DNA from: Candidatus Hydrogenedens sp.
Lineage (GTDB): Bacteria > Hydrogenedentota > Hydrogenedentia > Hydrogenedentales > Hydrogenedentaceae
NCBI GenBank assembly: GCA_049968235.1
Contig: JBMFRC010000002.1
Coordinates: 32,001 to 96,000, forward strand
Direction of reading: 5' to 3'
DNA: 64,000 nucleotides
A program made the position numbers and the translations under genes. Below, piece by piece: positions 4,011 through 62,380 of this stretch. The notes under the pieces were generated by a model. It worked only from the letters and a program-made list of their open reading frames with translations. It made no database searches and was not told the DNA's origin. The first letter of the stretch is position 1. Each line of letters starts with the position of its first letter.

Positions 4011-4060
4011 CGCGATTTCCTATTTTACCGTATTTTACTAATTTTATGCATATTAACTAT

Positions 4061-25483: not shown

Positions 25484-25557
25484 ATGATTTTTCGGATAAC
25501 CTTCTTGTTATTATAATACTATTACTATCATATAAAATACTCAATTTTTATATATTT

Positions 25558-28132: not shown

Positions 28133-28144
28133 GAATATTGTAAA

Positions 28145-29041: not shown

Positions 29042-29050
29042 ATTAGCAAT

Positions 29051-35417: not shown

Positions 35418-36530
35418 TTGATGAAAAAATTATCAAGGAGAAATTTTCTTCTAAGTAGCACATTACCTCTGTTCCCATACATATATAAATCTACAAACAA
35501 GCAAAGCAATATAAATATTCTTCTTATCATTTCTGATGATTTGAACAATTACACTTCTTACTTAAATTGTGAACCTGAACTATTAACCCCGAACATTCAT
35601 TCACTGCAAAAACATTCTATTACCTTTGAAAATGCATATTGTCAGTATCCTCTTTGCCATCCATCAAGAACAAGTATGCTTACAGGACTTCATCCCTTCT
35701 CTACGGGCGTATACATGTCCGAACAGATTAATTCTGCAGAGTTGCCTATATTACCTCAGTATTTAAAGGAAACACATTACCTTACTGCTGGAATTGGAAA
35801 AGTATTTCATCCCAAATACAATATTGAAAATGTATGGGATTTTAACTTCGAAATATACGACAACCTTTACAATTTTATATACAAAAAAGATGACCCTTTA
35901 TCTGCACAAAATTTCTGTTATGGTCCTGTTGATATTTCCCTTGAAGATACTAATGACTACAAAATAGCCCAACAAGCAGTGGATTTTATTAAATCGAATA
36001 AAAATAATCCCTGGTTTCTTGCTATTGGTTTCCACACTCCTCATACCCCTCTTTTTGCACCCCGGGAGTTTTTCAAGAAAATCCCAAAAAATATTGTAAA
36101 AAAGCCTATCGTTCCCGACGATGATTTAAACGATATTCCAGAAGCAGGTATAAAATTAATAACGAAATACGATAAGGCAAACATACACCAACTTGTATTA
36201 GAAAGGAATATATGGGAAGAACTTATTTATGCCTATTTAGTTCGAATTGCATTCTTAGATGAACTTATTGGAAGCATATTAAAAAATCTTGAAGAAAGTA
36301 AGATATTTAACAATACTTGTATTCTTCTTTGCGGTGATAATGGATGGCATTTAGGGGAAAAGAAACGATGGCAGAAATTTACTCTATGGCAAGAAGCCAA
36401 TAAAGTCCCACTTATTCTGCATCTCCCTGATGGATATAAAGGAGGCTTAACCCTAAAAGAACCTGCTGGGCTTGTTGATATTTTCCCCACAATAACAGAC
36501 CTTCTCTCTTTAAATAAACCTGAAAATTAG
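35418..36530 (+). CDS. Cys-type sulfatase with a Tat signal; catalytic N-terminal domain intact, reading frame broken at the 3' end
   Basis: Twin-arginine motif SRRNFLL. FGly signature CHPSRTSMLTGL. TPNIHSLQKHSITFENAY and CGDNGWHLGE are sulfatase blocks. Confidence 0.8.
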   Translation: MMKKLSRRNFLLSSTLPLFPYIYKSTNKQSNINILLIISDDLNNYTSYLNCEPELLTPNIHSLQKHSITFENAYCQYPLCHPSRTSMLTGLHPFSTGVYMSEQINSAELPILPQYLKETHYLTAGIGKVFHPKYNIENVWDFNFEIYDNLYNFIYKKDDPLSAQNFCYGPVDISLEDTNDYKIAQQAVDFIKSNKNNPWFLAIGFHTPHTPLFAPREFFKKIPKNIVKKPIVPDDDLNDIPEAGIKLITKYDKANIHQLVLERNIWEELIYAYLVRIAFLDELIGSILKNLEESKIFNNTCILLCGDNGWHLGEKKRWQKFTLWQEANKVPLILHLPDGYKGGLTLKEPAGLVDIFPTITDLLSLNKPEN

Positions 36531-36823
36531 AAGGTAAAAGTTTATTGCCTTCGATAAAAAAAGAAGTAATAGAAAATCCATATGTGGTAATTTCTCAGAT
36601 ATAAAATAACAATTTTGCCTTCCGTACGACACGATATTCGTATATTATTTATTATGATGGAAGCGAAGAACTATATGATTACCAATCAGACCCAGGAGAA
36701 TATCATAACATTGCTATGTTAGAAGAGAGTCAAGAAATAAAAAGGAATATCATTTCATTAATTCCCGATAATCAGCGGAAAAAGTTAGCCTCTATTATTA
36801 AAAAAGATATTTTCCAACCATAA
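36530..36823 (+). pseudogene. Displaced C-terminal segment of the upstream sulfatase, in the -1 frame and interrupted by an in-frame TAA at 36602
   Basis: The frame starting at 36530 reads EGKSLLPSIKKEVIENPYVVISQI-TAA-NNNFAFRTTRYSYIIYYDGSEELYDYQSDPGEYHNIA...FQP-stop. These are the conserved sulfatase C-terminal GKSLLP and ELYDLxxDPxExxN blocks. Confidence 0.55.
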
Positions 36824-36824
36824 A

Positions 36825-39482: not shown

Positions 39483-39488
39483 ATCTGG

Positions 39489-47985: not shown

Positions 47986-47999
47986 CGAACACGGTAAAA

Positions 48000-49112
48000 T
48001 TATTCCAAATTCATTTCCAACTGTAAATTTGTCCCTGTCTTTACCCAGGCATTTGTTACGATGACTTTTGTATTTCCCTCTCCTCTTGTCCGAACCAGCA
48101 ACGAAGAACGAGGTTCCAATCGGTATGTTCCTCCTGCCACAGGACCTATTAGTTTCAATGACCATGGGATATCCGATACATTTTCTATTTGCATTTGTCC
48201 TTCTTTCTTTTTGGGATTGGTTATCCGTATTTTTCCGAAATGGACACAGGAAAGAAATAACTTTGAAACCCATTCTTCCCTGCCATTAATCAAATCCGCT
48301 ATCCATACAACAGTCCGTTTATTGTCTAAGGCTTCACGAATTCCCTGCTCTGTTTTTTCCTTAGCAAACACTAAAGTCATGGGTCTTTGAAATTTATCCA
48401 ATTGAAATTCTCCCATAATTAACCCATGCAAGTCACTGTTACCCATCATTGTAAGGTTATTTTCCAAAGCCCAATCTATTACATGCGGATACCAATCCGA
48501 ACCATTGGATATTTCCACTCCGTGCAGGTACCCTTTTTCTAACAATTTCTTCTGAAATTTAAATTGATTCCTGGTTGCAGAATTCCAATCCGGATGATTC
48601 CATTGAATAAAAGCGCCCTGTTTAACTGCATTCTCAATTGCTGTAAATGGGTCTTCATTATCAACAAGGTTTACATCTTTCAGAAATAAAGCATTATAAT
48701 GTCCATAAGGTTCGTCGCGTGTGATTTCCCCACCTTTGATTAAAATAATTCCATACCATTCTCCCGCACTTTGTGCTACTTCATACGATGAATTATCATC
48801 TCCCGTTAAAAATGGTCTGGACCTACCGTTTTCTATATGGTCTGTAATAGCAATCGCATCTAAACCTGTTGCCCACGCTTCTATAACCCGTAAATCGGGC
48901 CAAACACGACCATCAGAAAAAACGGTATGCATATGGAAATCACATTTTAATGTTATAAATTCCTCTACATTAGGAACCATCACCTCGTGTCGAATTATAG
49001 GTCGTTCCAACTGTGTAATAGTGATAGGAGAGATATTGGCCGCAAAAATCATTAACGACATCGTTACAAGAAAAATTACCAAAATAGCTATTTGCTTTAC
49101 CTGTTTAATCAT
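48000..49112 (-). CDS. PHP domain-containing metal-dependent phosphoesterase with an N-terminal TM/signal
   Basis: CDFHMHTVFSDGRVWPDLRVIEAWATGLDAIAITDHIE is the PHP His-cluster motif. Confidence 0.65.
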   Translation of the reverse strand: MIKQVKQIAILVIFLVTMSLMIFAANISPITITQLERPIIRHEVMVPNVEEFITLKCDFHMHTVFSDGRVWPDLRVIEAWATGLDAIAITDHIENGRSRPFLTGDDNSSYEVAQSAGEWYGIILIKGGEITRDEPYGHYNALFLKDVNLVDNEDPFTAIENAVKQGAFIQWNHPDWNSATRNQFKFQKKLLEKGYLHGVEISNGSDWYPHVIDWALENNLTMMGNSDLHGLIMGEFQLDKFQRPMTLVFAKEKTEQGIREALDNKRTVVWIADLINGREEWVSKLFLSCVHFGKIRITNPKKKEGQMQIENVSDIPWSLKLIGPVAGGTYRLEPRSSLLVRTRGEGNTKVIVTNAWVKTGTNLQLEMNLE

Positions 49113-49321
49113 TCGTTGTCTCCTTATGGTAAAGAATTTAAAAATACTCCTGTGATTAGACTGTAAAAAAATTTTTATGTTTCAAATAAGAAATAATAGC
49201 ACATACAAAAATAAAAAAAAATTTACTTATTTATCCCAGCTATCTTATCCGCTTTACCACCCGTCAGATGGGCATCCATCTATTCTATTCCTTTATCAGA
49301 AACAACTCTAATTTCGATTTT

Positions 49322-51058
49322 TCAATTCTTCGTATACCTTAAAAGACTACCTGCACTTAATCCTTTCTGAAAAACTCCTTCTCTGACAACCCGTTTTCCA
49401 TTAATAATTACCTCATCCACCCCGGATGGCGATTCTTTCGGCGACTTAAAACATGCTTTTGAATCTATCTTATCCATATCAATTACAAGCACATCTGCGT
49501 AATATCCCTCTTTAAGCAGTCCACGCTGCTTTAAGTTAAAATGTTCTGCCGACAATGATGTGCATTTACGAACAGCCGTTTCTATGTCCACCAGTTTTAA
49601 TTCTTTACAATACCGGCGCAAATATCGTGGATAGCAACCGTAAAACAAAGGCGACGGCATACCGAAGCCCATCAATATTGCATCTGTGGAAATCATTACC
49701 TTTGGATGTGCCATTGAAGGGAAAGTTGTGCGTTCTGTAAATAAATCATCTGGTTCCGTAATACTTTCAAACACGAGCACATGCCCTTCCTCTTCAAGCA
49801 GTAAATCGCAGGCAGTATCAAATGGATGCTGTTTCCGTTCTCTTGCAATTTCTATAAGATTCATACCTTCATATCGTTTGTTCTTTTTAGATTGAACTGC
49901 CATTATGTGTGCACATTCCCAACCCATAAGACAGAATAAGTTCAATGTCCACGAATCGGGACCTGTATGTGGCCACTCCATTTTACCGTGTTCGATACTA
50001 TTTAACATTTTCTTTCTCAAATCATGGTCTTTTAACCGATTCAGAACCTGTGTCCTATCTCCTTCTAAAGCCCATGGCGGGAAAAACGCTAAAAGATGGG
50101 TAAAACCAGTTGTCGTTGGCATAACATCCACACTTATATCAATTCCTTTCTCTTGATTCCCCACAATCCTTTCGATGGCTTGTTCAATAGGTTTCCCTAA
50201 TGGAACAGGAATAGGCATCCATTGGGCTAAACTTGCCATCATACGAATTAATGACCGAACAAAGGGACCCATAAACCCCATATCCGGCACCCAGAATAAA
50301 TGAGAAACCTGAGCCCTTATCTGATTTTCACACGCAACAGTTGCTACCTCATCTATCGCTTTATCCAAAGTATTACTATAACTCCGCAAATGACTTGTGA
50401 AAATCCCTTCATACTTCTTCAGAACTTTTCCAAGTTCCACCAATTCTCGCGTATCACTTTGACTACCCGGATAATATTGCAGTCCTGTGGACATACCTAT
50501 GCCACCTGCATCCATAGATGCTTCTAAGGCTCCTGCCATTTTCTGTATCTCTTCATCTGTAGCATATCGGTTTTCGGTACCAACCCCATGTAGTCTTAGT
50601 AACCCATGAGGTATTAAAATAGCTGTATTCAGTGGAATACCTTTATGCTCTAAAAAATCAAAATACTCACTCGTGGTTCGCCATTGGAATTCCTTTTCCG
50701 GGTCAAAACTGGAAAAAACCTCAATATATGTAAATATAGCTTCCTTCCCAGACTCCAATACAGGAGAAAGACCCATTCCACAATTTCCACCGACAAAAGT
50801 AGTAATCCCTTGTTTAATTAATGGCATTAGCAATTCTTCTGCGTTCTCTTTGTGCAAACTTATATCTGCATGAGAATGAGGGTCTATAAAGCCAGGACAG
50901 ACCATCCTTCCCTTAGCATCAATTTCCTCCTTCGCCTCTGCTTCTTTCAAGTTACCGATAGCAACGATTTTACCTTGTTCAATTGCAAGGTCGCCGGCAT
51001 ATGCCTTTTCTCCACTACCATCTACAATTTTCCCATTCCGAATAAGAACATCAAACAT
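49322..51058 (-). CDS. N-acyl-D-amino-acid deacylase (D-aminoacylase), amidohydrolase family
   Basis: MFDVLIRNGKIVDGSG...GFIDPHSHAD metal-binding start and the amidohydrolase_3 layout. Length 578 aa. Confidence 0.78.
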   Translation of the reverse strand: MFDVLIRNGKIVDGSGEKAYAGDLAIEQGKIVAIGNLKEAEAKEEIDAKGRMVCPGFIDPHSHADISLHKENAEELLMPLIKQGITTFVGGNCGMGLSPVLESGKEAIFTYIEVFSSFDPEKEFQWRTTSEYFDFLEHKGIPLNTAILIPHGLLRLHGVGTENRYATDEEIQKMAGALEASMDAGGIGMSTGLQYYPGSQSDTRELVELGKVLKKYEGIFTSHLRSYSNTLDKAIDEVATVACENQIRAQVSHLFWVPDMGFMGPFVRSLIRMMASLAQWMPIPVPLGKPIEQAIERIVGNQEKGIDISVDVMPTTTGFTHLLAFFPPWALEGDRTQVLNRLKDHDLRKKMLNSIEHGKMEWPHTGPDSWTLNLFCLMGWECAHIMAVQSKKNKRYEGMNLIEIARERKQHPFDTACDLLLEEEGHVLVFESITEPDDLFTERTTFPSMAHPKVMISTDAILMGFGMPSPLFYGCYPRYLRRYCKELKLVDIETAVRKCTSLSAEHFNLKQRGLLKEGYYADVLVIDMDKIDSKACFKSPKESPSGVDEVIINGKRVVREGVFQKGLSAGSLLRYTKN

Positions 51059-51139: not shown

Positions 51140-54100
51140 TTAATTTGCCGGACCTACACCAAAGCCATCTTCTCCAACAGAATCGATATGATAACCGCCA
51201 GCATTAAAGAATTGAATTAATCGCAATAATTCAGTAAAGTCTATTTTCCAATTCTTAGGATTATAATCGGATGTGTGATAATTACAACTATGATTTACCC
51301 CATCACCAACATCATATCCATCTTCTGTAGATGTCGATACATCCGCACAGTGATATCCGAATGAATTAAAGAACTGAATTACACGCAATAACTCACGGAG
51401 TTCTATCTTCCAATTCCCGTTTACATCCGCACTATGTCGGGAAGGAGGTTCTCCTTCAGATACACCTTCTACAGTTCCTTCTCCCTCAGGCACACCTTCA
51501 GGACTTCCTTCTTCATTCGAAATCACAGTTGCAACCACAGGATAGACGAGCATATTGGGTCCACCTGTAAACGATACAATAGCAAGGTATTCCCCTGAAG
51601 AAAGGTCATTTGCACAGAATCTCACAACTATGGACTGGCTTTCTCCCGGAGCAAGATTATAATTATAATCAGAGGTAATTTGGAACACATCTGCTGATAA
51701 CTCTGGAGCACTTATTATCGCATTTCCTATCAAAGCAGATGTACTCAATTCAGAATTCATTATAGCAAATGTCCCTTCCACGCACTCACCCGCATTTACC
51801 TCACCTAGATCCAATACATAAGGATTAATAACTGGAACAACAATACTTTGTTCCCCCTCAGTTACTCCTTCGGGTTCGATAGGAAGAAACATTGCTTTTA
51901 GAACTGTATTTTGACTAATACTGAATGTTACAGGATTAGCTGTCCCAGCAAACTGCCCATTAATCGTCCAGCCCTGCCAGATATCTTTCGACGAATTATA
52001 AGTAGCCTGTGCGGTTACTGTGGTTCCAAAATAATAATACCCGGGCTGTAAACCTTCACTACTTTCAGGTGATACCTGAACTGAAACAGGAGCGGTATTC
52101 CCCTCTGTTACCACAGATAATTGATACATCGGTAAAATCTCACCTTCATTTGTCTCACTAAAGCATGGAGCACCACAGCCACCTCCATTACTCTTTGCCG
52201 TTGGGTCAACTGCAGAAACTACAAAGGTGATAATACTTTCTCCACTTTCATTGAAGGTAGCATTATATTCCGCTAAATTACAAACCCTATCTCCATCCGC
52301 ATCACCAAACGCACCTAAATACTGACTTGCAGAAGTATCCACCTGGTTTACTATGAAAGATATCCCTACCTGTCCTGCTATTTGAGAAAGCATTGATAAT
52401 GAAATACCTTCTCCCAATGTGGCTATTCCTGTAAATAATGCCTTCAACTGATTTACATCCACTTTTGATAAAATATTTTGAGGGATTACTCCCTGTGATA
52501 CCGCAGTATCAATTATATTCGTAAACAAGGCATAATTGCTTTGCCATGCAGACAATACACAACAACGGTTCTGAACACCCGGGTTCGCCAATATAATATC
52601 CAGAAGTTGCAATTGAGCAGACTCCACCATTTGATTACCATCGAAATCTGTTGTAATCGAATTAATACTCATCATTGAACAATATGCTTCCCACGCATTC
52701 CGGGCATTCCCTTGAACTCCAATATTACCACATGAGGTAATAGCACACGGTACTGGACAACCTTCAGGAATTTCTCCTTCACCCTCTACAATACCTTCAG
52801 TAGATCCTTCAGCGGAACCTTCTCCTTCAAAATTACCTTCGGGGAGCCCTTCAACAGTTCCCTCAGGTTCAATACACGGAGCATAACGGGACAGGTCACT
52901 TTCCTTATATTCAGAAGGAACTCCCTTTCCTGCTGAAATACCTGCTAATCCATCATACGCTTCTATATTTAACCACGTTATCGCAATCCGACCATCAAAG
53001 AACATCTCTATCTGGAAACTGGCTGTATCATTTGTAAAGTTACCATCAACCTTAACCTCATGATAGGTCACAACGAAACGGTCATCCAACTGCTTCCACC
53101 AGATTTGTCCGCCATCATTCGGTTTCAGATTATCAAACAGACCTGAAACACGCGGTATACGGAAATGATTTTCCGGTGATTCCTTATTCTCGGTATCCCC
53201 TTCTGTAAACGTTAAATAACCATTACTACCTATAAATACACGGTCATAAGCCACTCCATAAAGAATAACCTGTTTCCCGTCTGCCAGAGGTACCTCGACA
53301 TAGGCATCATCACCTAAACTGACCGGTGTTGAAAGTATCGAATCTACCGGGTAATCTGTAATCCCCGTAATAGTGCATGCAAAATAACCGTTAGCATTAT
53401 TCGCCGGAGTTAAAAGTAACCGTTTATTATCCAAGTCATTGTCAACAACAAAGTCTTCTGTAAACCAATCCGTTGCAGGTTGAGAGGGTGGACCGGAGGT
53501 AAAATTCACCTCACAAGGACGGAATTCTAAATCTAAGGGTCCGTTAAACGGGGACCAGGGTATCGTCATAATGGGTAAATCCCACCGACCTCCAAAAATA
53601 CTAATAAATACATTCGGATAAAACTTAACCGTTAAAATAAGGTTACAAATTTCATTATAGTTCATCACAGAGCGATAGCCATCTTCACCTACTTGTACGG
53701 GTACGGATTGTCCCTCCTCCCAGAATAATAAACCTTCCTGTAAACTTATAGTATCACATTCCAGGGAACCATTTGCATCCGCTGAAACATCAATACCTGC
53801 CCCTGATGAAAAAGGAATCCACTTTAACCAGTCCGGTAAAGTAACACCTACTAAGTTCAATATTACTTTTACAAGGTCCACATCAAACAAATGCGTTTTA
53901 GGTGTATTATCTTGAATCGTAGAGGCAGTATCTAACAAAAAACTATTAAAATAATCATATGCAGTTGTACGAAATTCCACATCAGGAATGTAAGGAACAT
54001 CTACTGTAAACGGAGGAATAATTCCTATATCAAACCCCGCTTTCATGAGCAATTCCGCTCCGAAATCATACCCCCAGAAGCCACTGGCATTACCTGCTGT

Positions 54101-54943
54101 TAACCATGGCGGATTTAAATGGAAAAAGCCCTGCACATCCGCCTGGTAATTAGCAACTGCTGCAGCGCGAATACGCACCTGAACTGGAAATCCTCCCGGA
54201 TTTTCCTCAAATCCACCCTCTCCTTTACCATTAGGCCACCAGCCTGAATCAAAACTTAGGTTTAACCCTTTCATTGGTGCGGTAAACTGGACAGGTTGCG
54301 TTTCTACTGCTTTACCTAAGTCTCCCTTTACATCAACCTTAACTATCTCTTCAACACCACCTGTAACAGTATATTCTGTATTAATTGATTTCATACCCGA
54401 ACAGGGTTCTAACACTTGTACAATAACTCCAGACTTCCCATCCTGTTGATAATCCCAGCGAATTAAAACGGGACGAACCCCATTTTCCGAATAAATCTCT
54501 TTCCTCTGCTCTACATATAAAAGTTTATCTTTCAAAAAACATTTCGTCTCACTTACACCTTCATTCCCTTTCGTTTGAACAATAGACCATTCTAAAGAAA
54601 TGTTTTCTAATTGCAATCGAAAATTCTTGCTACCATCGTTTGACATTATCTTTTCCGTCTTATCAAAATATTTCTCTAATAATGCACGATTCATTGAAGT
54701 AAAGCCAGGAAAGCCAACTCCTTGTTTACCGAATTGCATTATACTTCGACGAACAACGCCATCTTCGCTGAATTCCACATATTCCAGAGAACCCTCTTCT
54801 CTTGCTAACAACTGAAGTTTTGCATCAGGAGGAATATTATCTCCTTCCCAGCGTGCTGAATATACCCAGTATGATTCTGTAAAACCAACAGCAGAAATAC
54901 ATACAATAAGAATTAATGCAAACATTAACTTCTTGTATTCCAT
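51140..54943 (-). CDS. Giant secreted multidomain protein (1267 aa) with Glu/Gly-rich linkers and two C-terminal dockerin-like repeats
   Basis: Signal peptide. EG-rich linkers EGTVEGLPEGNFEGEGSAEGSTEGIVEGEGEIPEG and EGSPEGVPEGEGTVEGVSEGEP. C-terminal repeats DVNGNWKIELRELLRVIQFFNSFGYH and NPKNWKIDFTELLRLIQFFNAGGYH. An internal D-x-D-G-D site, GDADGDRVCNLAEY. Confidence 0.6.
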   Translation of the reverse strand: MEYKKLMFALILIVCISAVGFTESYWVYSARWEGDNIPPDAKLQLLAREEGSLEYVEFSEDGVVRRSIMQFGKQGVGFPGFTSMNRALLEKYFDKTEKIMSNDGSKNFRLQLENISLEWSIVQTKGNEGVSETKCFLKDKLLYVEQRKEIYSENGVRPVLIRWDYQQDGKSGVIVQVLEPCSGMKSINTEYTVTGGVEEIVKVDVKGDLGKAVETQPVQFTAPMKGLNLSFDSGWWPNGKGEGGFEENPGGFPVQVRIRAAAVANYQADVQGFFHLNPPWLTAGNASGFWGYDFGAELLMKAGFDIGIIPPFTVDVPYIPDVEFRTTAYDYFNSFLLDTASTIQDNTPKTHLFDVDLVKVILNLVGVTLPDWLKWIPFSSGAGIDVSADANGSLECDTISLQEGLLFWEEGQSVPVQVGEDGYRSVMNYNEICNLILTVKFYPNVFISIFGGRWDLPIMTIPWSPFNGPLDLEFRPCEVNFTSGPPSQPATDWFTEDFVVDNDLDNKRLLLTPANNANGYFACTITGITDYPVDSILSTPVSLGDDAYVEVPLADGKQVILYGVAYDRVFIGSNGYLTFTEGDTENKESPENHFRIPRVSGLFDNLKPNDGGQIWWKQLDDRFVVTYHEVKVDGNFTNDTASFQIEMFFDGRIAITWLNIEAYDGLAGISAGKGVPSEYKESDLSRYAPCIEPEGTVEGLPEGNFEGEGSAEGSTEGIVEGEGEIPEGCPVPCAITSCGNIGVQGNARNAWEAYCSMMSINSITTDFDGNQMVESAQLQLLDIILANPGVQNRCCVLSAWQSNYALFTNIIDTAVSQGVIPQNILSKVDVNQLKALFTGIATLGEGISLSMLSQIAGQVGISFIVNQVDTSASQYLGAFGDADGDRVCNLAEYNATFNESGESIITFVVSAVDPTAKSNGGGCGAPCFSETNEGEILPMYQLSVVTEGNTAPVSVQVSPESSEGLQPGYYYFGTTVTAQATYNSSKDIWQGWTINGQFAGTANPVTFSISQNTVLKAMFLPIEPEGVTEGEQSIVVPVINPYVLDLGEVNAGECVEGTFAIMNSELSTSALIGNAIISAPELSADVFQITSDYNYNLAPGESQSIVVRFCANDLSSGEYLAIVSFTGGPNMLVYPVVATVISNEEGSPEGVPEGEGTVEGVSEGEPPSRHSADVNGNWKIELRELLRVIQFFNSFGYHCADVSTSTEDGYDVGDGVNHSCNYHTSDYNPKNWKIDFTELLRLIQFFNAGGYHIDSVGEDGFGVGPAN

Positions 54944-55165
54944 TGCAACTCTCCTTTATATTTTTTATTGATTTGTATTAAATTTCTTAATCCCTCAAAC
55001 ATAATTCTAAAACCACAAAACCATAAATACCATAAAAATTGACCTTTTATATAATCTTACCATTATTTTATACAAATTTCAATTTTTTTATGACAAATTT
55101 TTATTTTGATAAAAGAATAAAATAAGGTGTATGATAAATTAAACAGAAAAAGAAGGAGTACTGCA

Positions 55166-55498
55166 ATGATTAAAGATAGAATTGTTCGTATAAAGATGAA
55201 AAAGAATTTCAAGGAACAAAAGCCCTTTTCTTTCGTTGGGAAAATAACCCTCTGGTCTGAAAATTGGATAGCCTTAGAAGGAAAAGGAATTATGTTAACC
55301 CGTCAGCAGTCCAGTGGGGTACAAATAGATGAAGGAATTAAAGTTCTTTTAATCCCTCGTGAAAGCATTGACCATATACAGGTATTGCCAGATAATTTTG
55401 ATATAACCCAATTAAAAGTTACCACTGAAGGACAACAATTAGTTTTAGTAATTGATGGGAAACGCGATTCTATCCTTGGAGAAATGGGAGAAGGATAA
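55166..55498 (+). CDS. Hypothetical small protein (111 aa from the ATG with an AAGGAG RBS; the ORF track starts at a GTG at 55127)
   Basis: AAGGAG lies 7 nt upstream of the ATG at 55166. No recognisable motif. Divergent from the large secreted gene. Confidence 0.4.
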   Translation: MIKDRIVRIKMKKNFKEQKPFSFVGKITLWSENWIALEGKGIMLTRQQSSGVQIDEGIKVLLIPRESIDHIQVLPDNFDITQLKVTTEGQQLVLVIDGKRDSILGEMGEG

Positions 55499-55518: not shown

Positions 55519-56085
55519 TTAACCAGTAGACACACGCTCGATATACTTACCTGTTCGAGTATCTATTTTTATAACATCACCTTCTTTAATAAAGAGGGGA
55601 ACCTGTATTTTTGCACCACTTTCCAGAGTACAGAATTTTAATACATTTGTAGCGGTATCTCCACGCACAGCAGGTTCCGCAGAAACAACTTTTAATTCAA
55701 CAAACGGTGCCATTTCCGCAATAATAGGTTTATCTTCCAGAAAGTAAATAGAGCATAAATCGGACTCTTTCAAAAATTTCTTCTGCTCACCTAACATTTC
55801 TTCAGGAATAAAGGTCTGTTCATAAGTTTCTAAGTCCATAAAATAAAGGAGACCTTCCGACTCATAAAGATATTGCATCTTCCGCTCCAGCAACATTACT
55901 TCCTCCACTTCATCGGACATGCGAAAAGTTACATCCATTGTCCTTCCTGTTTTTACATTCTTTAATTTCGTTTTTAACATGGCTCGCCAATTACCGGGAG
56001 TAATATGTTGGAACTCCACAACTACCCAGATATCTCCTTCATAACGAATTGCCATTCCTCTGCGAAAACCAGAAACAGAAATCAT
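55519..56085 (-). CDS. efp: Elongation factor P family protein (EF-P/EfpL-like) with an atypical beta3-beta4 loop
   Basis: Fits EF-P over its 188 aa, for example the GDTATN...LESGAKIQVPLFIKEGDVIKIDTRTGKYIERV C-terminal block. The loop reads FQHITPGNWRAMLKTKLKN in place of KPGKG or SGRN. Confidence 0.78.
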   Translation of the reverse strand: MISVSGFRRGMAIRYEGDIWVVVEFQHITPGNWRAMLKTKLKNVKTGRTMDVTFRMSDEVEEVMLLERKMQYLYESEGLLYFMDLETYEQTFIPEEMLGEQKKFLKESDLCSIYFLEDKPIIAEMAPFVELKVVSAEPAVRGDTATNVLKFCTLESGAKIQVPLFIKEGDVIKIDTRTGKYIERVSTG

Positions 56086-56209
56086 CCTTTCATTCCTTTC
56101 TTTGGGTTTCAGTTGAATCTTTTTTGCCTCTATTCATACTATATTATAAATTATTATAAATAGTTTATAATCCCTTTGTAAAAAAAACTTTTTAATATAA
56201 GGTAGACTT

Positions 56210-59047
56210 ATGAATTTTATAGTCTTCATTCCGTTGCTACTTCATCTCCTTCATTTCCCACAAATAAACAATCCTTTTGAAAATGCACATTTAATCATAG
56301 ACCCACGTATGAAAGATGTTATCCCTAATAACAATTTCATGACGAACACAAAAAATGACTGGATAAAAGACAGTCCCCACCAGATACATACACTATTCAG
56401 AAAAATTTTTGTTGTTGAAAAATTTCCTAAATTGGCAGAGATATATATTACTGCAGATGACTATTTTAAACTCTATATAAATGGTGAACATATTTTAGAA
56501 GGTCCAACAAACGGTTATCCTTTTGCCTACCCTTATTTTAAGTTTAACCTGACCCCATTCATTAGGACAGGGACAAATATACTGGCTATTCACACATATT
56601 ACAGAGGGTTAATAAATCGTGTTTGTGTCAGTGGTGATAATCGTTCCGGGCTTATCTTGAAACTTATACTTACCGATATGGAGGGACGAAAAACAGAGAT
56701 TGTATCTGATACAACATGGAAATGCTTCCCTCTGGATGCATTTATTACGACTGACACTATAGGTTATAAAACACAATTCATTGAGAATATAGATATGCTA
56801 AAATACCCAAAAGACTGGCAATCCCTTGATTTCGATGATAGCCACTGGATAAACCCCGAATTAGGAAAAAGTGACTACACTTTTGTTGACTTACCTGCAA
56901 AACCATTAGAAATAAAAAATGTTTTCCCCAAAGAAAAGAAAAAAATTAATTCAGGACATTTCATTTTTGATTTCGGTCGCGAAGTCGTTGGATACACGAG
57001 AATAAAAACTAGGGGTGAAAGAGGACAAAAAATGATAGTTTATCATGGGGAAGAACTGGATGAAAACGGATATGTCCGCTGGCAAATGCGAGCATACTGT
57101 GATTACAAAGAAGAAATCATTTTATCCGGTGAAGAAGATATTTCTCCTTTCTATGAATACCGTGCCTTTCGATATATTGAATTGGATAATGCTCCCGAAG
57201 AAACCTCCGTATGGGTTGAAGAACGCCATTACCCATTTGACACCACAAAAGTTCTCTTTTATTCTTCAGATAAGGATTTAACAAATATATGGGATATTTG
57301 TCAATTGGGAGTTCGACTTTGCTCGCAAGAAGGCTTTTTGGATTGTCCTTCCCGTGAAAAAGGACAATATTTAGGAGATGCAGTTATTACATCTCGTTCC
57401 TTTATGTGGCTTACAGGAGATACTTCATTAACAAAAAAATCATTAATAGATTTTTCTCTTTCAACAAAAATAGATCCTGGTCTAACAGCGGTTGCACCTT
57501 CCGGGTTTATTCAAGAACTTGCCGAATACTCCCTTCAATATCCATTAATGCTATGGGAATACTATCGTCATTCCGGTGACAAAGATTTTCTAAAAGCAAT
57601 GGCAACAGAATGTTTACCATCACTCCTATACTATTTTGCACAGTTTGAAAATGAATCCGGCTTATTAAACTCTACCGGGAAAAAACCTATTTTGATTGAT
57701 TGGCCCAAAAACCTTCGTGATAATTTCGATTATGATTATGCCCAGAACAAACCTAATGCGGTCGTTAATGCTTTTTATTACGGAGCCGTTACAACAACAC
57801 TGGAAATACAAAAGACGCTCGGCATAGAAGACACTGCACTCAAAGAAAAAGCAGAAAAAATATGGAATGGCTATCAAAAAATCTTTCTGGACTCTGAAAA
57901 GAAACTTTATAAAGATGCTCCAAACTCGAAACATTATGCTCTGCATAGCAATGCTCTACCTCTCTACTTTGGATTGGTAAAAGATGAAAAAGTAAAAGAA
58001 AATATTTTCTCTTTAATTGAACAAAAAGGACTTTACTGTGGTGTTTATATCGCATCTTACATCATTGAAGCATGCTTCAAAGAAGGAAATCCCGAATTAG
58101 GATGGAAACTATTAACAAACAACACAGAATATTCATGGAAGGAAATGCTTCGCAATGGGGCTACTTCCTGCCTTGAAGTGTGGAAACCCGAAATGAAATC
58201 AAATATGAGTTGGTGTCATGCATGGAGTAGTTGCCCTATTTATCTCTTATCGGAATATGTATTAGGTCTAAAAATCGGCAAACCCGGCTGGGAAGAAATC
58301 CACTTCTCCCCAGCAAAAATAAACGATTTACCCGATATGTTTCTCATTAAACCCTTACCTGATGGAGGTTATTGCTCTGTGAATATAAAAAACAATAACT
58401 ATAACCTGACCGTTCCTGAGAATATTCATGTAATAACAGATGGTGTGCAGTGTGGAAATATTTCTGTTCATACTGTTTTATCTCACCAAAGTCCGACAGA
58501 ACTATCCGAAGAAGAAAAGACACTACTGAAAAATTATCAGTGGGACATAAAGACAGAAAACACTCGAGGAATTTGGGTTTCTATCAAAAAACAAAAATTA
58601 TATGTAATTGAAAAAAACAAAGTAGTATGGCAAACTCTTTGTTCCACTGGGATAAAAGGAATAGGTGAAAAATTAGGTTCCGAACAAACCCCCAGAGGGT
58701 GGCATCAAATTGTTGAAAAAATTGGTGACAATGCCCCATGGGGACAAATCTTTCGCAATCGTCAACCCGTAGGGATATGGGATAAAAGTCAGATTACAGA
58801 TGAATCCCTTGTCCTAACTCGAATACTGCGTCTTGATGGCTTGGAAGAAACAAAGAATAAAGGTATTAATAACGAAGGAGAAATTGTAGATTCGTATCAA
58901 CGATTCATTTACATTCATGGCACCAATAAAGAAGAACTTATAGGCACTCCTTTTACACGTGGTTGTATCGGTCTAACTAATAATGATGTGATTATGCTCT
59001 ACAACATTGTTCCCCTCAACACGAAAGTTCTTATTACAGAAGAATAA
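56210..59047 (+). CDS. Fusion protein: GH78-like alpha-L-rhamnosidase (six-hairpin glycosidase) region plus a C-terminal L,D-transpeptidase (YkuD) domain
   Basis: N-domain AEIYITADDYFKLYINGEHI matches the rhamnosidase N-terminal beta-sandwich. DCPSREKGQYLGDA matches the GH78 DCPxRE...GD block. The C-terminus from about 58550 carries the YkuD motif TPRGWH...IYIHGTNKEELIGTPFTRGCIGLTNNDVIMLYNIVPLNTKVLI. Confidence 0.65.
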   Translation: MNFIVFIPLLLHLLHFPQINNPFENAHLIIDPRMKDVIPNNNFMTNTKNDWIKDSPHQIHTLFRKIFVVEKFPKLAEIYITADDYFKLYINGEHILEGPTNGYPFAYPYFKFNLTPFIRTGTNILAIHTYYRGLINRVCVSGDNRSGLILKLILTDMEGRKTEIVSDTTWKCFPLDAFITTDTIGYKTQFIENIDMLKYPKDWQSLDFDDSHWINPELGKSDYTFVDLPAKPLEIKNVFPKEKKKINSGHFIFDFGREVVGYTRIKTRGERGQKMIVYHGEELDENGYVRWQMRAYCDYKEEIILSGEEDISPFYEYRAFRYIELDNAPEETSVWVEERHYPFDTTKVLFYSSDKDLTNIWDICQLGVRLCSQEGFLDCPSREKGQYLGDAVITSRSFMWLTGDTSLTKKSLIDFSLSTKIDPGLTAVAPSGFIQELAEYSLQYPLMLWEYYRHSGDKDFLKAMATECLPSLLYYFAQFENESGLLNSTGKKPILIDWPKNLRDNFDYDYAQNKPNAVVNAFYYGAVTTTLEIQKTLGIEDTALKEKAEKIWNGYQKIFLDSEKKLYKDAPNSKHYALHSNALPLYFGLVKDEKVKENIFSLIEQKGLYCGVYIASYIIEACFKEGNPELGWKLLTNNTEYSWKEMLRNGATSCLEVWKPEMKSNMSWCHAWSSCPIYLLSEYVLGLKIGKPGWEEIHFSPAKINDLPDMFLIKPLPDGGYCSVNIKNNNYNLTVPENIHVITDGVQCGNISVHTVLSHQSPTELSEEEKTLLKNYQWDIKTENTRGIWVSIKKQKLYVIEKNKVVWQTLCSTGIKGIGEKLGSEQTPRGWHQIVEKIGDNAPWGQIFRNRQPVGIWDKSQITDESLVLTRILRLDGLEETKNKGINNEGEIVDSYQRFIYIHGTNKEELIGTPFTRGCIGLTNNDVIMLYNIVPLNTKVLITEE

Positions 59048-59893: not shown

Positions 59894-62380
59894 TTATAAA
59901 AAGTCTCCATATAGTTCTTTTGCACATTGCGGACAAATTCCATGGCTAAATTCTGCTTCTGTATGCTGGCGAATATATACCTCCACCTCATGCCAGTAAC
60001 CTGTATCATCACGAATTCTCTTACAGCGTGCACATATCGGTAACAAACCATGAAGTTTTTTGACAGTATTCAATGCCTCCTGTAATTTTTCTACAGTCTC
60101 TTCTAACTCTTTTGTCTTTTGTAAGTTCTTTTTTTCCAATCGGATGCGTTCCAGAGCCTGAGCATACACAGAAGTTATCCACTCAATAGATTCCCAATGC
60201 GACGGGGTATAATTATCCTCTGAATTTACTGCTATGACGAAAACTAATTCATGAGAAGGGGTATAAGAAGGATAACATAATAATCTATTTACAGGAACTT
60301 TCCCAAAAAGTAAATGTTCTTTATCCTGAACATCATTTATAAGCAAAGGTATACCTGCCTCAATAAAACGGCGCAAAATTTTTTCTTTTTTAACCAATTC
60401 CTTCATATTGAAAGAGATTTCAAATTTATTTATTTTCTTTTTGTCTATACCATAAAAGAAATACATAGCCCTGTCAGAGTCAAAATATCCAGTAAAGCAA
60501 AATGCACTATTGAGTATATCTACACCTGTTTGACATACCATTTGCGTTAGTTCTCCTTCGTCTCGCAAATTCAAAAGCGAACGAGCAAACCCTGCATATA
60601 AAGAACTGATAACAACCTCATTTGCTAATTGTTTCTCTAATCTCTTTTTATCTGTAATGTCTATATGTGTTCCGGAAAAACGGATAGGATTCCCTTTTGA
60701 ATCTCTTGCCGAAACTCTTCCATAAGTATGTATCCATTGTTTATACATACCTCTATAGTAAATCTGATATTGGACATTAAAGACGCCGTCTTCTTTTGCA
60801 AGTGCTTCTCCCAATTCTTTTCGAATTAATTCTCTATGCACAGGAACAATACAATTGAACCAATCTTCTAATGTATAAAACTTCTTTGGGCTTATTCGAA
60901 ACATATCTAAAGCAGACTGATTCATTGTATATTCATTCTTCAAAATATCCCATGACCATAAACCGATACTTCCCAATTCTGAAGCAACACGGAGGTTTTC
61001 TTTTACATTTTTTAATTTCTCTTCCGATTCCATAAAAGCGGTTATATCCATTCCAATACCTACAAGTTTTTGGGCATATTTCCCCTGTCGCGAGATACAT
61101 TCCCCAATAGTGCGCACCCAAACCAATCTATCTCCGGGTAAAAGCAACCGATGGTCAACAGCAAAACTATTTGTTGCCCCATGAATACAAGGCTTGACTG
61201 CATGCCAAAAATTTACACGGTCTAAGGGATGTATATATTTCCACCACTCTGTTAATTCATCCGGAACCCTTAAATACGGGAATAAGGTTTGTAAACCAGA
61301 TGATATTATCTTTCGCGTATCTACTTCATATTCCCAAACACCAATATGCCCCGTCTTTAAGGAAATTTGATGAAGATTTAATAATGCCTTTTCTTGCCAG
61401 TATTGTTCCAAATAAGAAATGGTCCCTGTTAAAAAAGGTATTTTCTCTTCCAGATAACGGCAAATCTCTTCTGTATCTTTATTATCATTCCTATCTGCAA
61501 AAAGAAATAGCCATTTCCGCTGTCCCGCAGTATTTAATGGAAGGAAAATTAACGAACGATACCCCAATAAATGACACAGTCCACAATATTCTGTATCTTT
61601 AAAACAATGAACAAGTATCCGTGCTTTTTCCGGTGTTGCATTAAACCGCAAAAAGTCTTTATACCTAAGTTCGGATGGAATATAAATAGCACGACCTTCA
61701 AGAAAATCTTCACATACCCTTGTAATATTTTTATCGGAACAAAGTAATGAACAAAAATCTACTTCTTTATCATTCTTGAACACCTGTATATGATTTTTAC
61801 CTTCCTTCATCAATGCACATACTACTTTAAAATCAAATAGATTACTTAAACCAGATAACAACCGTGACATGCCTTCTTCCAACCGATATACACTATTATT
61901 AATCGTTAAACCTATTATAAATTCATCAAACAACTTATCAAATAAGTTTCGTAAATATCGACGATTTCTTAAAATATGATTCCGAATAATTCTCAAAGAA
62001 CAATTTAAGTGGCGGGTATTTTTTGACCCTAATGGCACACAATACACATTGTCTCTTGCTAATTGAGGCTCTATAATCTCCGGAATTTTAGAACTGACTG
62101 TAAAAAGAATAATGTTGTCATAATTATCTAAAATCCTCTTATAAGAACCCCACTTTGGTATATTTTCTATATAATCAAAAACCATCAATTCATAATTAAT
62201 TTCACCGTTTAATAAACGAGTTAAACTTTGAGTAGTAGCACAGTAATGCATCTTTACTTTCTGATCCCAAAATCTTTCATTTAAAAGAATCTTATCTCTC
62301 TCTTCTTGGGGTTGTCCTACCACTAATATATTCAGACAGGAAAAGGAAGGAAACTTATTTATTTTCTTTTCAGATAACAT
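59894..62380 (-). CDS. Multi-sensor signalling protein: Asp-less receiver-like N-domain, GAF and two PAS domains, coiled coil, and a C-terminal Cys/His-rich putative zinc-binding module
   Basis: The PAS-like segments are GVWEYEVDTRKIISS... and GLWSWDILKNEYTMNQ.... The C-terminus reads LPICARCKRIRDDTGYWHEVEVYIRQHTEAEFSHGICPQCAKELYGD, with the spacing CxxC...H...HGxCPxC. There are no HisKA, GGDEF or EAL motifs. Confidence 0.6.
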   Translation of the reverse strand: MLSEKKINKFPSFSCLNILVVGQPQEERDKILLNERFWDQKVKMHYCATTQSLTRLLNGEINYELMVFDYIENIPKWGSYKRILDNYDNIILFTVSSKIPEIIEPQLARDNVYCVPLGSKNTRHLNCSLRIIRNHILRNRRYLRNLFDKLFDEFIIGLTINNSVYRLEEGMSRLLSGLSNLFDFKVVCALMKEGKNHIQVFKNDKEVDFCSLLCSDKNITRVCEDFLEGRAIYIPSELRYKDFLRFNATPEKARILVHCFKDTEYCGLCHLLGYRSLIFLPLNTAGQRKWLFLFADRNDNKDTEEICRYLEEKIPFLTGTISYLEQYWQEKALLNLHQISLKTGHIGVWEYEVDTRKIISSGLQTLFPYLRVPDELTEWWKYIHPLDRVNFWHAVKPCIHGATNSFAVDHRLLLPGDRLVWVRTIGECISRQGKYAQKLVGIGMDITAFMESEEKLKNVKENLRVASELGSIGLWSWDILKNEYTMNQSALDMFRISPKKFYTLEDWFNCIVPVHRELIRKELGEALAKEDGVFNVQYQIYYRGMYKQWIHTYGRVSARDSKGNPIRFSGTHIDITDKKRLEKQLANEVVISSLYAGFARSLLNLRDEGELTQMVCQTGVDILNSAFCFTGYFDSDRAMYFFYGIDKKKINKFEISFNMKELVKKEKILRRFIEAGIPLLINDVQDKEHLLFGKVPVNRLLCYPSYTPSHELVFVIAVNSEDNYTPSHWESIEWITSVYAQALERIRLEKKNLQKTKELEETVEKLQEALNTVKKLHGLLPICARCKRIRDDTGYWHEVEVYIRQHTEAEFSHGICPQCAKELYGDFL

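What the first reader, a model, noticed from the sequence alone, without database searches (positions are those of the whole stretch)
55519..56085. EF-P family protein with a non-canonical modification loop
The protein is clearly EF-P-like end to end, but the beta3-beta4 loop tip reads HITPGNWRAM. In beta-lysylated EF-P it would be KPGKG, and in rhamnosylated EF-P it would be SGRN. The loop is about two residues longer than in E. coli or Pseudomonas EF-P, which recalls the extended-loop EfpL/YeiP subfamily. An Asn/Trp/Arg tip implies either an unmodified factor or a different modification system; no epmA/epmB/earP is present in this window. The N-terminus RRGMAIRYEG resembles YeiP KKGMVLNYNG.
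Basis: partly seen in the sequence, partly recalled or inferred. Interest (0 to 1): 0.5.

Follow-up and report, generated by a model that had tools for sequence, protein, structure and literature searches.

The report
Asparagine-tipped elongation factor P gene
This is a genuine elongation factor P gene from a Hydrogenedentota bacterium whose ribosome-reaching loop has normal length but ends in Asn-Trp-Arg instead of the usual modified lysine; the class was already noted in the literature, but how it is activated is still unknown.

Summary
The ORF is real (window 55519-56085, minus strand, 188 aa). It is a full three-domain EF-P that passes the NCBIfam efp equivalog cut-off (230 vs 185.8 bits).

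Alignments to E. coli and C. thermocellum EF-P are ungapped, and the AlphaFold model gives the canonical seven-residue loop (T29-A35). It is not EfpL/YeiP: it scores 101 and 85 bits against cut-offs of 216 and 264.

The differences are substitutions. The tip Lys becomes Asn32, the following Gly becomes Trp33 and the next residue becomes Arg34.

PGNWRA is invariant in all 120 closest database homologs (57-97 % identity), with synonymous codon turnover, so it is under selection. In an exhaustive search, 28 of the 150 nearest cluster representatives have an Asn tip, with signature (T)PGN[W/L/K]R[A/G].

Volkwein et al. 2019 already recorded Asn-tip EF-Ps, including PGNWRA in Chloroflexus and Roseiflexus. 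In the five complete genomes I could inspect it is the only EF-P listed, no known modifier is present, and a DHS-like protein always is.

No modifier gene is in the window or linked to efp in related loci.

Verdict: a new member of a known, uncharacterised EF-P class, of moderate interest.

The parts
55519..56085 (-). efp coding sequence, 188 aa plus stop; three-domain EF-P of the Asn-tip (PGNWRA) class
   Evidence: ORF list and translation; Pfam three domains; TIGR00038 at 230 bits, above the 185.8 cut-off; best solved relative 1yby, 5.9e-48; AF2 pLDDT 82 and Foldseek top hits all EF-P
55906..56076 (-). Domain I (KOW-like EFP_N), residues 4-60
   Evidence: Pfam PF08207, 8.2e-21, profile positions 2-58 of 58
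55981..56001 (-). beta3-omega-beta4 loop, residues T29-P30-G31-N32-W33-R34-A35 (ACT CCC GGT AAT TGG CGA GCC); seven residues, with Asn32 at the position of the modified Lys/Arg
   Evidence: Ungapped alignments to solved EF-Ps and to E. coli EF-P; DSSP of the model; invariant in 120/120 homologs and in 127 PGNWR sequences; synonymous codon variation; sequence read
55723..55884 (-). Domain II (EFP OB domain), residues 68-121
   Evidence: Pfam PF01132, 2.2e-20, profile positions 1-54 of 54
55534..55701 (-). Domain III (Elong-fact-P_C), residues 129-184; holds G142-D143-T144 (= E. coli G144-D145-T146, d3 loop I) and Y181/R184 (= E. coli Y183/R186)
   Evidence: Pfam PF09285, 4.8e-26; alignment to E. 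coli EF-P; G142, K150, Y181 and R184 are at least 90 % conserved in both Asn-type and Lys-type groups; role of d3 loop I in E-site codon contact as described in PMC11611912
56153..56182 (-). Promoter-like site TTTACA-18 nt-TATAAT (11 of 12 matches), about 68 nt upstream of the start codon, in the 124-bp divergent intergenic region
   Evidence: Consensus scan; a pattern match only, function inferred
56094..56099 (-). Shine-Dalgarno-like AAAGGA, 8 nt upstream of the ATG
   Evidence: Read directly from the sequence; inferred

Best explanation
This is the housekeeping translation elongation factor P of a Hydrogenedentota bacterium closely related (roughly genus level) to Candidatus Hydrogenedens terephthalaticus.

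Like other EF-Ps, it should bind between the P and E sites of ribosomes stalled on Pro-Pro motifs. It would contact the E-site codon and the P-tRNA through domain III and reach the CCA end of the peptidyl-tRNA with the domain I loop.

It belongs to the Asn-tip class of EF-P, with loop signature (T)PGN[W/L/K]R[A/G]. In this class a loop of canonical length carries Asn32-Trp33-Arg34 where Lys-type EF-Ps carry Lys-Gly-x.

My preferred mechanism is inferred, not shown. The loop works without any of the known modifications. Replacing the flexible Gly33 with Trp stiffens the loop. Trp33 (stacking) and Arg34 (phosphate contact), rather than a long modified side chain, then position the CCA end.

Sub-probabilities:
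- functional EF-P of the Asn-tip class: about 0.9
- the only EF-P of this genome: about 0.75
- acts unmodified: about 0.45-0.5
For: Shown:
- Full three-domain EF-P that passes the efp equivalog cut-off. EF-P fold, TM 0.79 to 1yby.
- Canonical 7-residue loop.
- Residues equivalent to E. coli P32, G33, A37, G144, K152, Y183 and R186 are at least 90 % conserved in both Asn-type (n=127) and Lys-type (n=64) groups.
- PGNWRA is invariant in 120/120 homologs of 57-97 % identity. Across 13 loci there are 3 Pro, 4 Gly, 2 Asn, 4 Arg and 4 Ala codons, which indicates purifying selection.
- The Asn tip is widespread: 28 of the 150 nearest 50 %-cluster representatives.
- An Asn-type EF-P (L009, NPGNWRAF) is 72 % identical and ungapped to a Lys-type EF-P (L010, KPGKGAAF). 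In the loop they differ only at K29N, K32N, G33W and A34R. This looks like a loop switch within one orthologous lineage, not an old paralog.
- In five complete genomes with an Asn tip (Chlorobaculum, Pelodictyon, Chlorobium, Chloroflexus, Roseiflexus) the published table lists one EF-P each and no EpmA, EpmC, EarP or YmfI. The same table gives two rows where two EF-Ps exist.
- The gene has its own promoter-like site and SD.
- PP motifs in the window's 42 proteins occur at about the expected rate: 40 observed against 47.3 +/- 6.3. EF-P function is therefore still needed.
- No modifier is in the window. No gene family other than efp is shared across Asn-type loci of different lineages.

Inferred:
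- No Lys in the loop and no N-x-S/T sequon (N32-W33-R34), so lysine-directed chemistry and sequon-dependent N-glycosylation have no substrate.
- Precedents for unmodified EF-Ps that rely on loop rigidity (PGKGP) or an altered loop (EfpL) are reviewed in PMC12856214.
Against: - No experiment exists for any Asn-tip EF-P in the papers I could search.
- Asn is much shorter than modified Lys or Arg and cannot itself reach the CCA backbone, so an unmodified mechanism needs Trp33/Arg34 to take over. I could not examine model coordinates to test that geometry.
- Loop invariance is equally expected if the loop is a recognition site for a modifying enzyme.
- All five inspected Asn-tip genomes carry a DHS-like protein, although the dataset holds only 128 DHS proteins among 1137 genomes. 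That hints at a partner enzyme.
- The polyproline count rests on only 19.6 k residues.
Confidence: 0.6

Rival explanations
1. The Asn-tip loop carries a so-far undescribed post-translational modification on Asn32, Trp33 or Arg34, installed by an enzyme encoded elsewhere in the genome. The only published candidate is the deoxyhypusine-synthase-like (DS-domain) protein that co-occurs with Asn-tip EF-Ps.
For: - Five of five inspected Asn-tip complete genomes, from two unrelated phyla, are DHS+ and negative for EpmA, EpmC, EarP and YmfI. The dataset holds only 128 DHS proteins among 1137 genomes.
- Volkwein et al. explicitly raise the DHS link for Lys- and Asn-tip EF-Ps and call it experimentally unresolved.
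- Most characterised EF-P types need a modification.
- The absolute invariance of N-W-R would fit an enzyme recognition motif.
Against: - DHS chemistry transfers an aminobutyl group to a lysine epsilon-amine (PMC2821294). The loop T29-A35 contains no lysine, and an Asn amide is a poor acceptor (inference).
- DHS-like proteins also occur in EpmA+ Lys-type genomes such as Caulobacter and Coxiella, so they have a role independent of the Asn tip.
- No DS-domain gene lies in the window or in any of the 86 fetched loci, 1.2 Mb including 13 Asn-type loci.
- No conserved neighbour of any kind was found, whereas earP and epmB are often next to efp (own knowledge).
- No N-x-S/T sequon.
- The five genomes represent only two independent lineages.
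Confidence: 0.28
2. The gene is an accessory EF-P paralog with a specialised or reduced role, and a canonical Lys-type efp lies elsewhere in the genome.
For: - 29 of 1137 genomes in the published set have two EF-P paralogs.
- Only 64 kb of this genome could be examined.
- The gene is not in a classic ribosomal or acc operon context.
Against: - It passes the efp equivalog cut-off.
- Complete genomes with Asn-tip EF-P list only one EF-P.
- An Asn-type and a Lys-type EF-P are 72 % identical, as expected for orthologs.
- All non-loop functional positions are retained.
- No second efp is in the window.
- No assembly appears twice among the 80 genome loci. This is weak, because the scan patterns came from the query.
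Confidence: 0.1
3. One reading: it is an EfpL/YeiP-like extended-loop factor.
For: - The overall three-domain fold is shared; Foldseek gives TM 0.73 to 8s8u.
- There is an Arg near the tip and a Pro upstream.
Against: - EfpL models score 101 and 85 bits against cut-offs of 216 and 264.
- The loop is 7 residues, not 9.
- The alignment to EfpL needs gaps and reaches only 26 % identity, against 35 % ungapped to E. coli EF-P.
- 8s8u is the weakest sequence hit among solved EF-P-family chains.
Confidence: 0.01

Closest known systems
Asn-tip EF-P class recorded by Volkwein et al. 2019 (Front Microbiol, PMC6544042): Chlorobi PGNLRAF; Chloroflexus and Roseiflexus PGNWRA[F/M]
   Same: - Asn at the loop tip with Pro two residues upstream.
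- Seven-residue loop with Arg two residues after the Asn.
- The identical PGNWRA string occurs in Chloroflexus aurantiacus YP_001636477.1 and Roseiflexus WP_012120039.1.
- No EpmA, EpmC, EarP or YmfI.
   Different: - Different phyla (Hydrogenedentota, KSB1 and relatives, known mostly from MAGs).
- About 45 % identity to the Chloroflexus KOW domain by my hand count, which is not a tool result.
- Co-occurrence with a DHS-like gene could not be checked for this genome.
- The class has never been characterised experimentally.
Lys-type EF-P of Firmicutes/Clostridia (e.g. C. thermocellum 1yby; B. subtilis or S. aureus 5-aminopentanol type)
   Same: - Best solved sequence and structure match: 5.9e-48, ungapped, TM 0.79.
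- Same length and same flanks (EFQH...A.[FM].[KR]TKLKN).
- Same P30-G31.
   Different: - Tip Lys32 becomes Asn, Gly33 becomes Trp, Ala34 becomes Arg.
- No YmfI-type modifier was seen.
Unmodified PGKGP subfamily (Actinobacteria; C. glutamicum 6s8z)
   Same: - A possible functional analogy: activity without modification through a stiffer loop (PMC12856214).
- Position 34 is non-Gly and functionally important in both.
   Different: - The PGKGP motif is absent: no Lys32 and no Pro34.
- The rigidifying element here would be Trp33 rather than Pro34, which is an inference.
EfpL / YeiP (E. coli 8s8u)
   Same: - Three-domain EF-P fold.
- An unmodified Arg near the tip is used in EfpL.
   Different: - EfpL has a nine-residue loop, and its Pro lies three residues before the apical Arg.
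- It forms a separate family (TIGR02178).
- The query fails both EfpL models.
EarP-type EF-P (Pseudomonas 3oyy, Neisseria, Shewanella)
   Same: - Non-Lys tip.
- Seven-residue loop.
   Different: - The EarP type has Arg at the tip and lacks Pro two residues upstream (S/G-G-R-N).
- Here the Pro is kept and the tip is Asn.
- Asn-tip genomes are EarP-negative in the published table.

Membership tests
Bacterial EF-P (TIGR00038 / Pfam EFP_N + EFP + Elong-fact-P_C) | Three-domain architecture over the full length | tested here: met
   All three Pfam domains match end to end at 1e-20 to 1e-26. The AF2 model matches solved EF-Ps.
Bacterial EF-P (TIGR00038 / Pfam EFP_N + EFP + Elong-fact-P_C) | Score above the curated equivalog cut-off | tested here: met
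   TIGR00038 scores 230 bits against 185.8; NF001810 scores 231 against 161.
Bacterial EF-P (TIGR00038 / Pfam EFP_N + EFP + Elong-fact-P_C) | Seven-residue beta3-omega-beta4 loop | tested here: met
   Ungapped alignments. DSSP of the model places the loop at 29-35. The canonical length is stated in PMC6544042 and PMC11611912.
Bacterial EF-P (TIGR00038 / Pfam EFP_N + EFP + Elong-fact-P_C) | Basic residue (Lys or Arg) at the loop tip | tested here: not met
   The tip is Asn32. The literature accepts non-basic tips (N, Q, M, S, G) as natural EF-P variants, so this defines subtypes rather than the family.
Bacterial EF-P (TIGR00038 / Pfam EFP_N + EFP + Elong-fact-P_C) | Domain III contact motifs (d3 loop I G-D-T; C-terminal Y..R) | tested here: met
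   G142-D143-T144 and Y181/R184 align with E. coli G144-D145-T146 and Y183/R186. G142, Y181 and R184 are at least 90 % conserved in both the Asn-type and Lys-type groups.
Bacterial EF-P (TIGR00038 / Pfam EFP_N + EFP + Elong-fact-P_C) | Rescue of polyproline-stalled ribosomes | not testable with these tools
   This needs a biochemical or genetic assay.
Asn-tip EF-P class (Volkwein et al. 2019) | Asn at the protruding position with Pro two residues upstream | tested here: met
   P30-G31-N32. The paper reports 100 % co-occurrence of Asn with that Pro.
Asn-tip EF-P class (Volkwein et al. 2019) | Shared loop signature PGN-x-R-A | tested here: met
   PGNWRA here. PGNWRA and PGNLRA occur in the published alignment. 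PGN[W/L/K]R[A/G] occurs in 28 cluster representatives.
Asn-tip EF-P class (Volkwein et al. 2019) | Genome lacks EpmA, EpmC, EarP and YmfI and holds a DS-domain (DHS-like) protein | not testable with these tools
   Only 64 kb of the genome is available. None of these genes is in the window.
EfpL / YeiP | Score above the EfpL/YeiP equivalog cut-offs | tested here: not met
   NF003392 scores 101 against 216; TIGR02178 scores 85 against 264.
EfpL / YeiP | Loop extended by two residues with an apical Arg and a Pro three residues upstream | tested here: not met
   The loop has seven residues. Arg34 lies four residues after Pro30. The EfpL features are taken from PMC11611912.
Unmodified PGKGP subfamily | P30-G-K-G-P34 motif | tested here: not met
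   The loop reads P-G-N-W-R. The motif definition is in PMC11388002.
EarP-type (rhamnosylated) EF-P | Arg at the tip, no Pro two residues upstream, EarP in the genome | tested here: not met
   The tip is Asn and the Pro is present. No EarP is in the window. Asn-tip genomes are EarP-negative.
a/eIF5A | Two-domain protein with a hypusinated Lys | tested here: not met
   The protein has three domains. IF5A structures match only domains I-II at E of about 1e-7 or weaker. There is no Lys in the loop.

The most novel reading that the evidence does not exclude
Asn-tip EF-Ps, signature (T)PGN[W/L/K]R[A/G], would represent a further and still undescribed way of activating EF-P. It could be a new modification on the N-W-R tip made by an unlinked enzyme, possibly the DS-domain protein that accompanies the Asn tip in all five complete genomes inspected. 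Alternatively it could be a modification-free mechanism in which an aromatic residue plus an arginine replace the long cationic side chain. The class is the sole EF-P in several phyla, including cultivable Chloroflexus and Chlorobaculum, so either outcome can be tested directly.
Probability: 0.3. Interest if true: 0.7.

Novelty: new member of a known kind. Interest (0 to 1): 0.35.

Why it matters
EF-P and its eukaryotic and archaeal homolog IF5A are universal. [quoted passage not shown]

An EF-P that is apparently the only copy in its genome, has a loop of normal length and carries an uncharged Asn at the tip does not fit any characterised activation strategy. Reviews from 2026 still do not list it.

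This window adds three things:
- The class is abundant in uncultivated phyla (Hydrogenedentota, KSB1).
- Its N-W-R tip is under very strong constraint.
- The Lys-type and Asn-type loops can swap as a four-residue block between orthologs that are 72 % identical.

The gene itself is an ordinary housekeeping factor. The open question belongs to the whole class and is best addressed in cultivable Chloroflexus or Chlorobaculum.

Tried and rejected
- EfpL/YeiP membership: rejected on HMM scores, loop length and gapped low-identity alignment.
- A linked modification gene: I looked for one in the window (Pfam on 46 ORFs). I also looked in Asn-type loci from other lineages, using precomputed Pfam annotation, all-against-all ORF clustering of 13 loci and Pfam on the L005 neighbours. 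Nothing is shared beyond efp.
- The alpha-L-rhamnosidase + YkuD gene divergent from efp looked tempting, given EF-P rhamnosylation. It is conserved only in the window and its three closest relatives (L001-L003), and it is a glycoside hydrolase, not a transferase. I treat it as coincidental.
- DS-domain gene linkage: tblastn with a human DHPS probe (sequence recalled from memory, used only as a probe) found nothing in 1.2 Mb of window plus loci.
- Classic efp-accB-accC context: not present.
- Monophyly of all Asn-tip EF-Ps: a loop-masked NJ tree of 125 sequences did not resolve one clade. 17 of 25 Asn-tip sequences have an Asn-tip nearest neighbour, against about 5 expected. I leave single versus multiple origin open.
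- Synteny between Lys-type L010 and the Asn-type loci: no shared neighbours; L009 is only 2.7 kb.
- Polyproline depletion as a sign of weak EF-P: not seen, but the sample is small.
- Literature searches for experimental work on Asn-tip EF-P, Hydrogenedentes EF-P or bacterial DHS-like function in Chlorobi and Chloroflexi: nothing beyond the bioinformatic mentions.
- I could not obtain model coordinates, so the orientation of Trp33 and Arg34 was not assessed.
Full report
**1. Observation**

The coordinates 55519-56085 delimit an ATG-to-stop ORF of 188 aa on the minus strand; the plus strand is full of stops.

The protein is EF-P over its whole length:
- Pfam finds EFP_N (residues 4-60), the EFP OB domain (68-121) and Elong-fact-P_C (129-184). 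Each covers its entire profile, with E-values of 1e-20 to 1e-26.
- NCBIfam's efp equivalog TIGR00038 scores 230 bits against a cut-off of 185.8.
- The best solved relative is C. thermocellum EF-P (1yby, 5.9e-48), followed by S. aureus, Coxiella, Thermus, Corynebacterium, Acinetobacter, E. coli and Pseudomonas EF-Ps. E. coli EfpL (8s8u) comes last at 1.6e-16.
- An AlphaFold2 model built from a 31-sequence family alignment has mean pLDDT 82. By Foldseek it matches solved EF-Ps best, with TM 0.79 to 1yby_B.

The string HITPGNWRAM is residues 27-36.

**2. The loop is not longer**

- HMMER aligns the query to solved EF-Ps with no gap: efqhITPGNWRAMlktkl against EFQHVKPGKGAAFVRTKL.
- BLASTP to E. 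coli EF-P gives 179 aligned residues with no gaps...EFQHITPGNWRAM... against ...ASEFVKPGKGQAF....
- DSSP on the model gives beta3 at 18-28, a loop at 29-35 and beta4 at 36-43. That is the canonical seven-residue beta3-omega-beta4 loop described in PMC6544042 and PMC11611912.

The real differences are substitutions. In query numbering, Lys29 becomes Thr, tip Lys32 becomes Asn, Gly33 becomes Trp, and Ala/Gln34 becomes Arg.

EfpL is excluded:
- Its two models score 101 and 85 bits against cut-offs of 216 and 264.
- The pairwise alignment to EfpL needs gaps and reaches only 26 % identity.
- EfpL's defining nine-residue loop is absent.
- The N-terminal similarity to YeiP is the general KOW-strand pattern found in all EF-Ps.

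**3. The motif is a conserved family signature, not an oddity of this gene**

- All 120 best hits in the 5.8-billion-protein collection (57-97 % identity) carry PGNWRA followed by M or, rarely, F.
- In a 31-sequence alignment, P30, G31, N32, W33, R34 and A35 are invariant although mean column identity is 76 %.
- At DNA level, 13 independent loci use 3 Pro, 4 Gly, 2 Asn, 4 Arg and 4 Ala codons in the loop with no amino-acid change. The constancy therefore reflects purifying selection, not recent ancestry.
- Source names and genome titles place the group in Hydrogenedentota, candidate division KSB1 and several loosely labelled MAGs.
- The window itself is about 83 % identical in DNA to a Candidatus Hydrogenedens terephthalaticus contig and syntenic with it over 13 kb. 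The EF-Ps are 98 % identical. This suggests a close relative, roughly genus level.

**4. Wider distribution**

An exhaustive phmmer search of 1.84 billion cluster representatives found 9262 EF-P relatives.
- The tip-residue table covers the 150 nearest representatives plus the query (151 rows): Lys in 88, Asn in 29 (28 representatives plus the query), Arg in 25 and Gln in 7.
- The Asn-tip loops read TPGNWRA, TPGNLRA, TPGNKR[A/G] and rare variants. The common signature is (T)PGN-x-R-(A/G).
- Comparing 127 PGNWR sequences with 64 PGKG sequences, the class-specific positions are N32, W33, R34 and M36, plus A12, M56 and L80.
- Positions equivalent to E. coli P32, G33, A37, G144, K152, Y183 and R186 are at least 90 % conserved in both groups.
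- The d3 loop I motif G-D-T, which contacts the E-site codon (PMC11611912), is intact as G142-D143-T144.

Everything except the tip says this is a working EF-P.

**5. Ortholog or extra paralog?**

- No second efp-like sequence exists in the window. The rest of the genome was not available.
- An Asn-type EF-P (L009, NPGNWRAF) and a Lys-type EF-P (L010, KPGKGAAF) are 72 % identical without gaps. In the loop region they differ only at K29N, K32N, G33W and A34R, between identical flanks. This looks like a block switch of the loop within one orthologous lineage.
- Dataset S1 of Volkwein et al. 2019 covers 1166 EF-Ps from 1137 complete genomes. YeiP was excluded, and two rows are given where two EF-Ps exist. 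It lists a single EF-P for each Asn-tip genome I could inspect: Chlorobaculum tepidum, Pelodictyon, Chlorobium, Chloroflexus aurantiacus and Roseiflexus.

I therefore consider this the housekeeping EF-P, with a probability of about 0.75.

The gene has its own promoter-like site (TTTACA-18-TATAAT, 11/12 matches) and an AAAGGA Shine-Dalgarno sequence. PP and PPP motifs in the 42 window proteins are not depleted: 40 PP observed against 47.3 +/- 6.3 expected, and 1 PPP against 2.6 +/- 1.7. The sample is small.

**6. Modification enzymes**

- Pfam scans of 46 window ORFs found no EpmA-like tRNA-synt_2, EpmB, EpmC, EarP or DS domain.
- Neighbourhoods of Asn-type efp genes in other lineages are unrelated to each other. 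All-against-all clustering of ORFs from 13 loci finds only efp shared by all of them.
- The divergent neighbour here is an alpha-L-rhamnosidase fused to a YkuD L,D-transpeptidase domain. It is conserved only in the window and its three closest relatives (L001-L003), and I treat the adjacency as coincidental.
- tblastn with a DHPS probe finds no DS-domain gene in 1.2 Mb of fetched sequence.

**7. What is already known**

- Volkwein et al. 2019 report that Asn at the protruding position always co-occurs with Pro two residues upstream.
- Their alignment contains PGNWRA in four sequences and PGNLRA in 22. Further 'PGN' strings are N-terminal RPGN[VI].
- Sieber et al. 2024 list Asn, Gln, Met, Ser and Gly tips.
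- Brewer and Wagner 2024 note that about half of genomes have EF-Ps of unknown type.
- A 2026 review enumerates the activation strategies without an Asn-type entry.
- Brewer et al. 2026 stress that an unmodified EF-P and one modified by an unknown pathway cannot be separated from genomic data alone.
- I found no experimental work on any Asn-tip EF-P.

**8. Mechanism**

Shown: a full EF-P with intact ribosome-, mRNA- and tRNA-contact motifs, a normal-length loop, and a strongly constrained N-W-R tip.

Inferred: it rescues Pro-Pro stalls as other EF-Ps do.

For the tip there are two live options.

(a) No modification, which I put at about 0.45-0.5.
- The loop has no Lys and no N-x-S/T sequon, and no known modifier co-occurs.
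- Losing the second Gly (Gly33 to Trp, Leu or Lys across the class) should stiffen the loop. This is conceptually like the Pro-stiffened PGKGP loop or the re-engineered EfpL loop, both of which work unmodified.
- Trp33 and Arg34 could then contact C75/A76.

(b) An unknown modification, which I put at about 0.28.
- Five of five Asn-tip genomes from two unrelated phyla are DHS+, although the dataset holds only 128 DHS proteins among 1137 genomes.
- Against this, DHS chemistry needs a lysine amine.
- DHS-like proteins also occur in EpmA+ Lys-type genomes such as Caulobacter and Coxiella.
- There is no gene linkage, and the five genomes are only two independent lineages.

**9. Verdict**

The gene is real and correctly recognised as an unusual EF-P. 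The extended-loop/EfpL reading is wrong, and the Asn-tip class is already on record.

It is a new member of a known but uncharacterised EF-P class, found here in a candidate phylum. The gene itself is ordinary. The unresolved question is how an EF-P works with an uncharged tip, and whether a new modification exists. That question belongs to the whole class and can be tested in cultivable Chloroflexus or Chlorobaculum.

Interest 0.35.

Noticed in passing
window 56210-59047 (+): A 945-aa protein fuses a complete bacterial alpha-L-rhamnosidase (N-terminal, concanavalin-like and six-hairpin domains) to a C-terminal YkuD L,D-transpeptidase domain. It is transcribed divergently from efp. It is conserved next to efp in the three closest relatives (L001-L003) but not in other lineages. 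The domain combination is unusual and its function is unknown.
   Followed up: partly
window 51140-54943 (-): A 1267-aa protein with a signal-peptide-like N-terminus has no Pfam match. It carries several Glu/Gly/Pro-rich linkers (EGxxEGE...) and two C-terminal repeats (NWKIE/D..ELLR.IQFFN.GGYH). Homologs occur in L001 and L081.
   Followed up: partly
window 55127-55498 (+): A 123-aa ORF without a Pfam match converges on the 3' end of efp, leaving a gap of only 20 bp. It is conserved at 89 % amino-acid identity at the same position in L001, so it is probably a real gene restricted to this group of close relatives.
   Followed up: partly
L009:379-939 and L010:124-684: Two EF-Ps are 72 % identical and align without gaps, but one carries NPGNWRAF and the other KPGKGAAF. 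This is a natural four-residue loop swap between close orthologs, and a ready-made pair for cassette-swap experiments.
   Followed up: yes
proteins P0130, P0171, P0240, P0140, P0231, P0245: The nearest cluster representatives hold further uncommon EF-P loops: TPGRYKA, TPGRRQA and TPGRYSA (Arg tip with the Pro kept), RTAQRRA, and KMQQR.P (Gln tip). These variants also fall outside the characterised types.
   Followed up: no
window 35418-42083: Three sulfatase-family genes are clustered. Two of them (864 and 885 aa) have N-terminal extensions of about 300 residues without a Pfam match. A GH123-like gene and an amidohydrolase gene lie nearby (45853-51058), which suggests a locus for degrading sulfated glycans.
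   Followed up: no
window 26324-30490 (+): lepA (EF4) is followed by two consecutive signal peptidase I (S26) paralogs of 298 and 479 aa.
   Followed up: no
window 25204-26211 (+): This is a protein-L-isoaspartate O-methyltransferase (PCMT, 6e-71). The listed GTG start overlaps the Ser/Thr kinase gene on the opposite strand (24527-25483), so the true start is probably further downstream. There is no evident link to the Asn-tip EF-P.
   Followed up: no
window 1272-7280 (-), 43340-45760 (-), 59894-62380 (-): Four large PAS/GAF sensor proteins lie in 64 kb. Three are hybrid histidine kinases with receiver domains.
   Followed up: no
window 10323-11291 (+): A protein carries a prepilin-type N-terminal methylation motif plus DUF1559. 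From my own knowledge, this family is greatly expanded in Planctomycetes-like genomes. The window overall has 36.4 % G+C.
   Followed up: no
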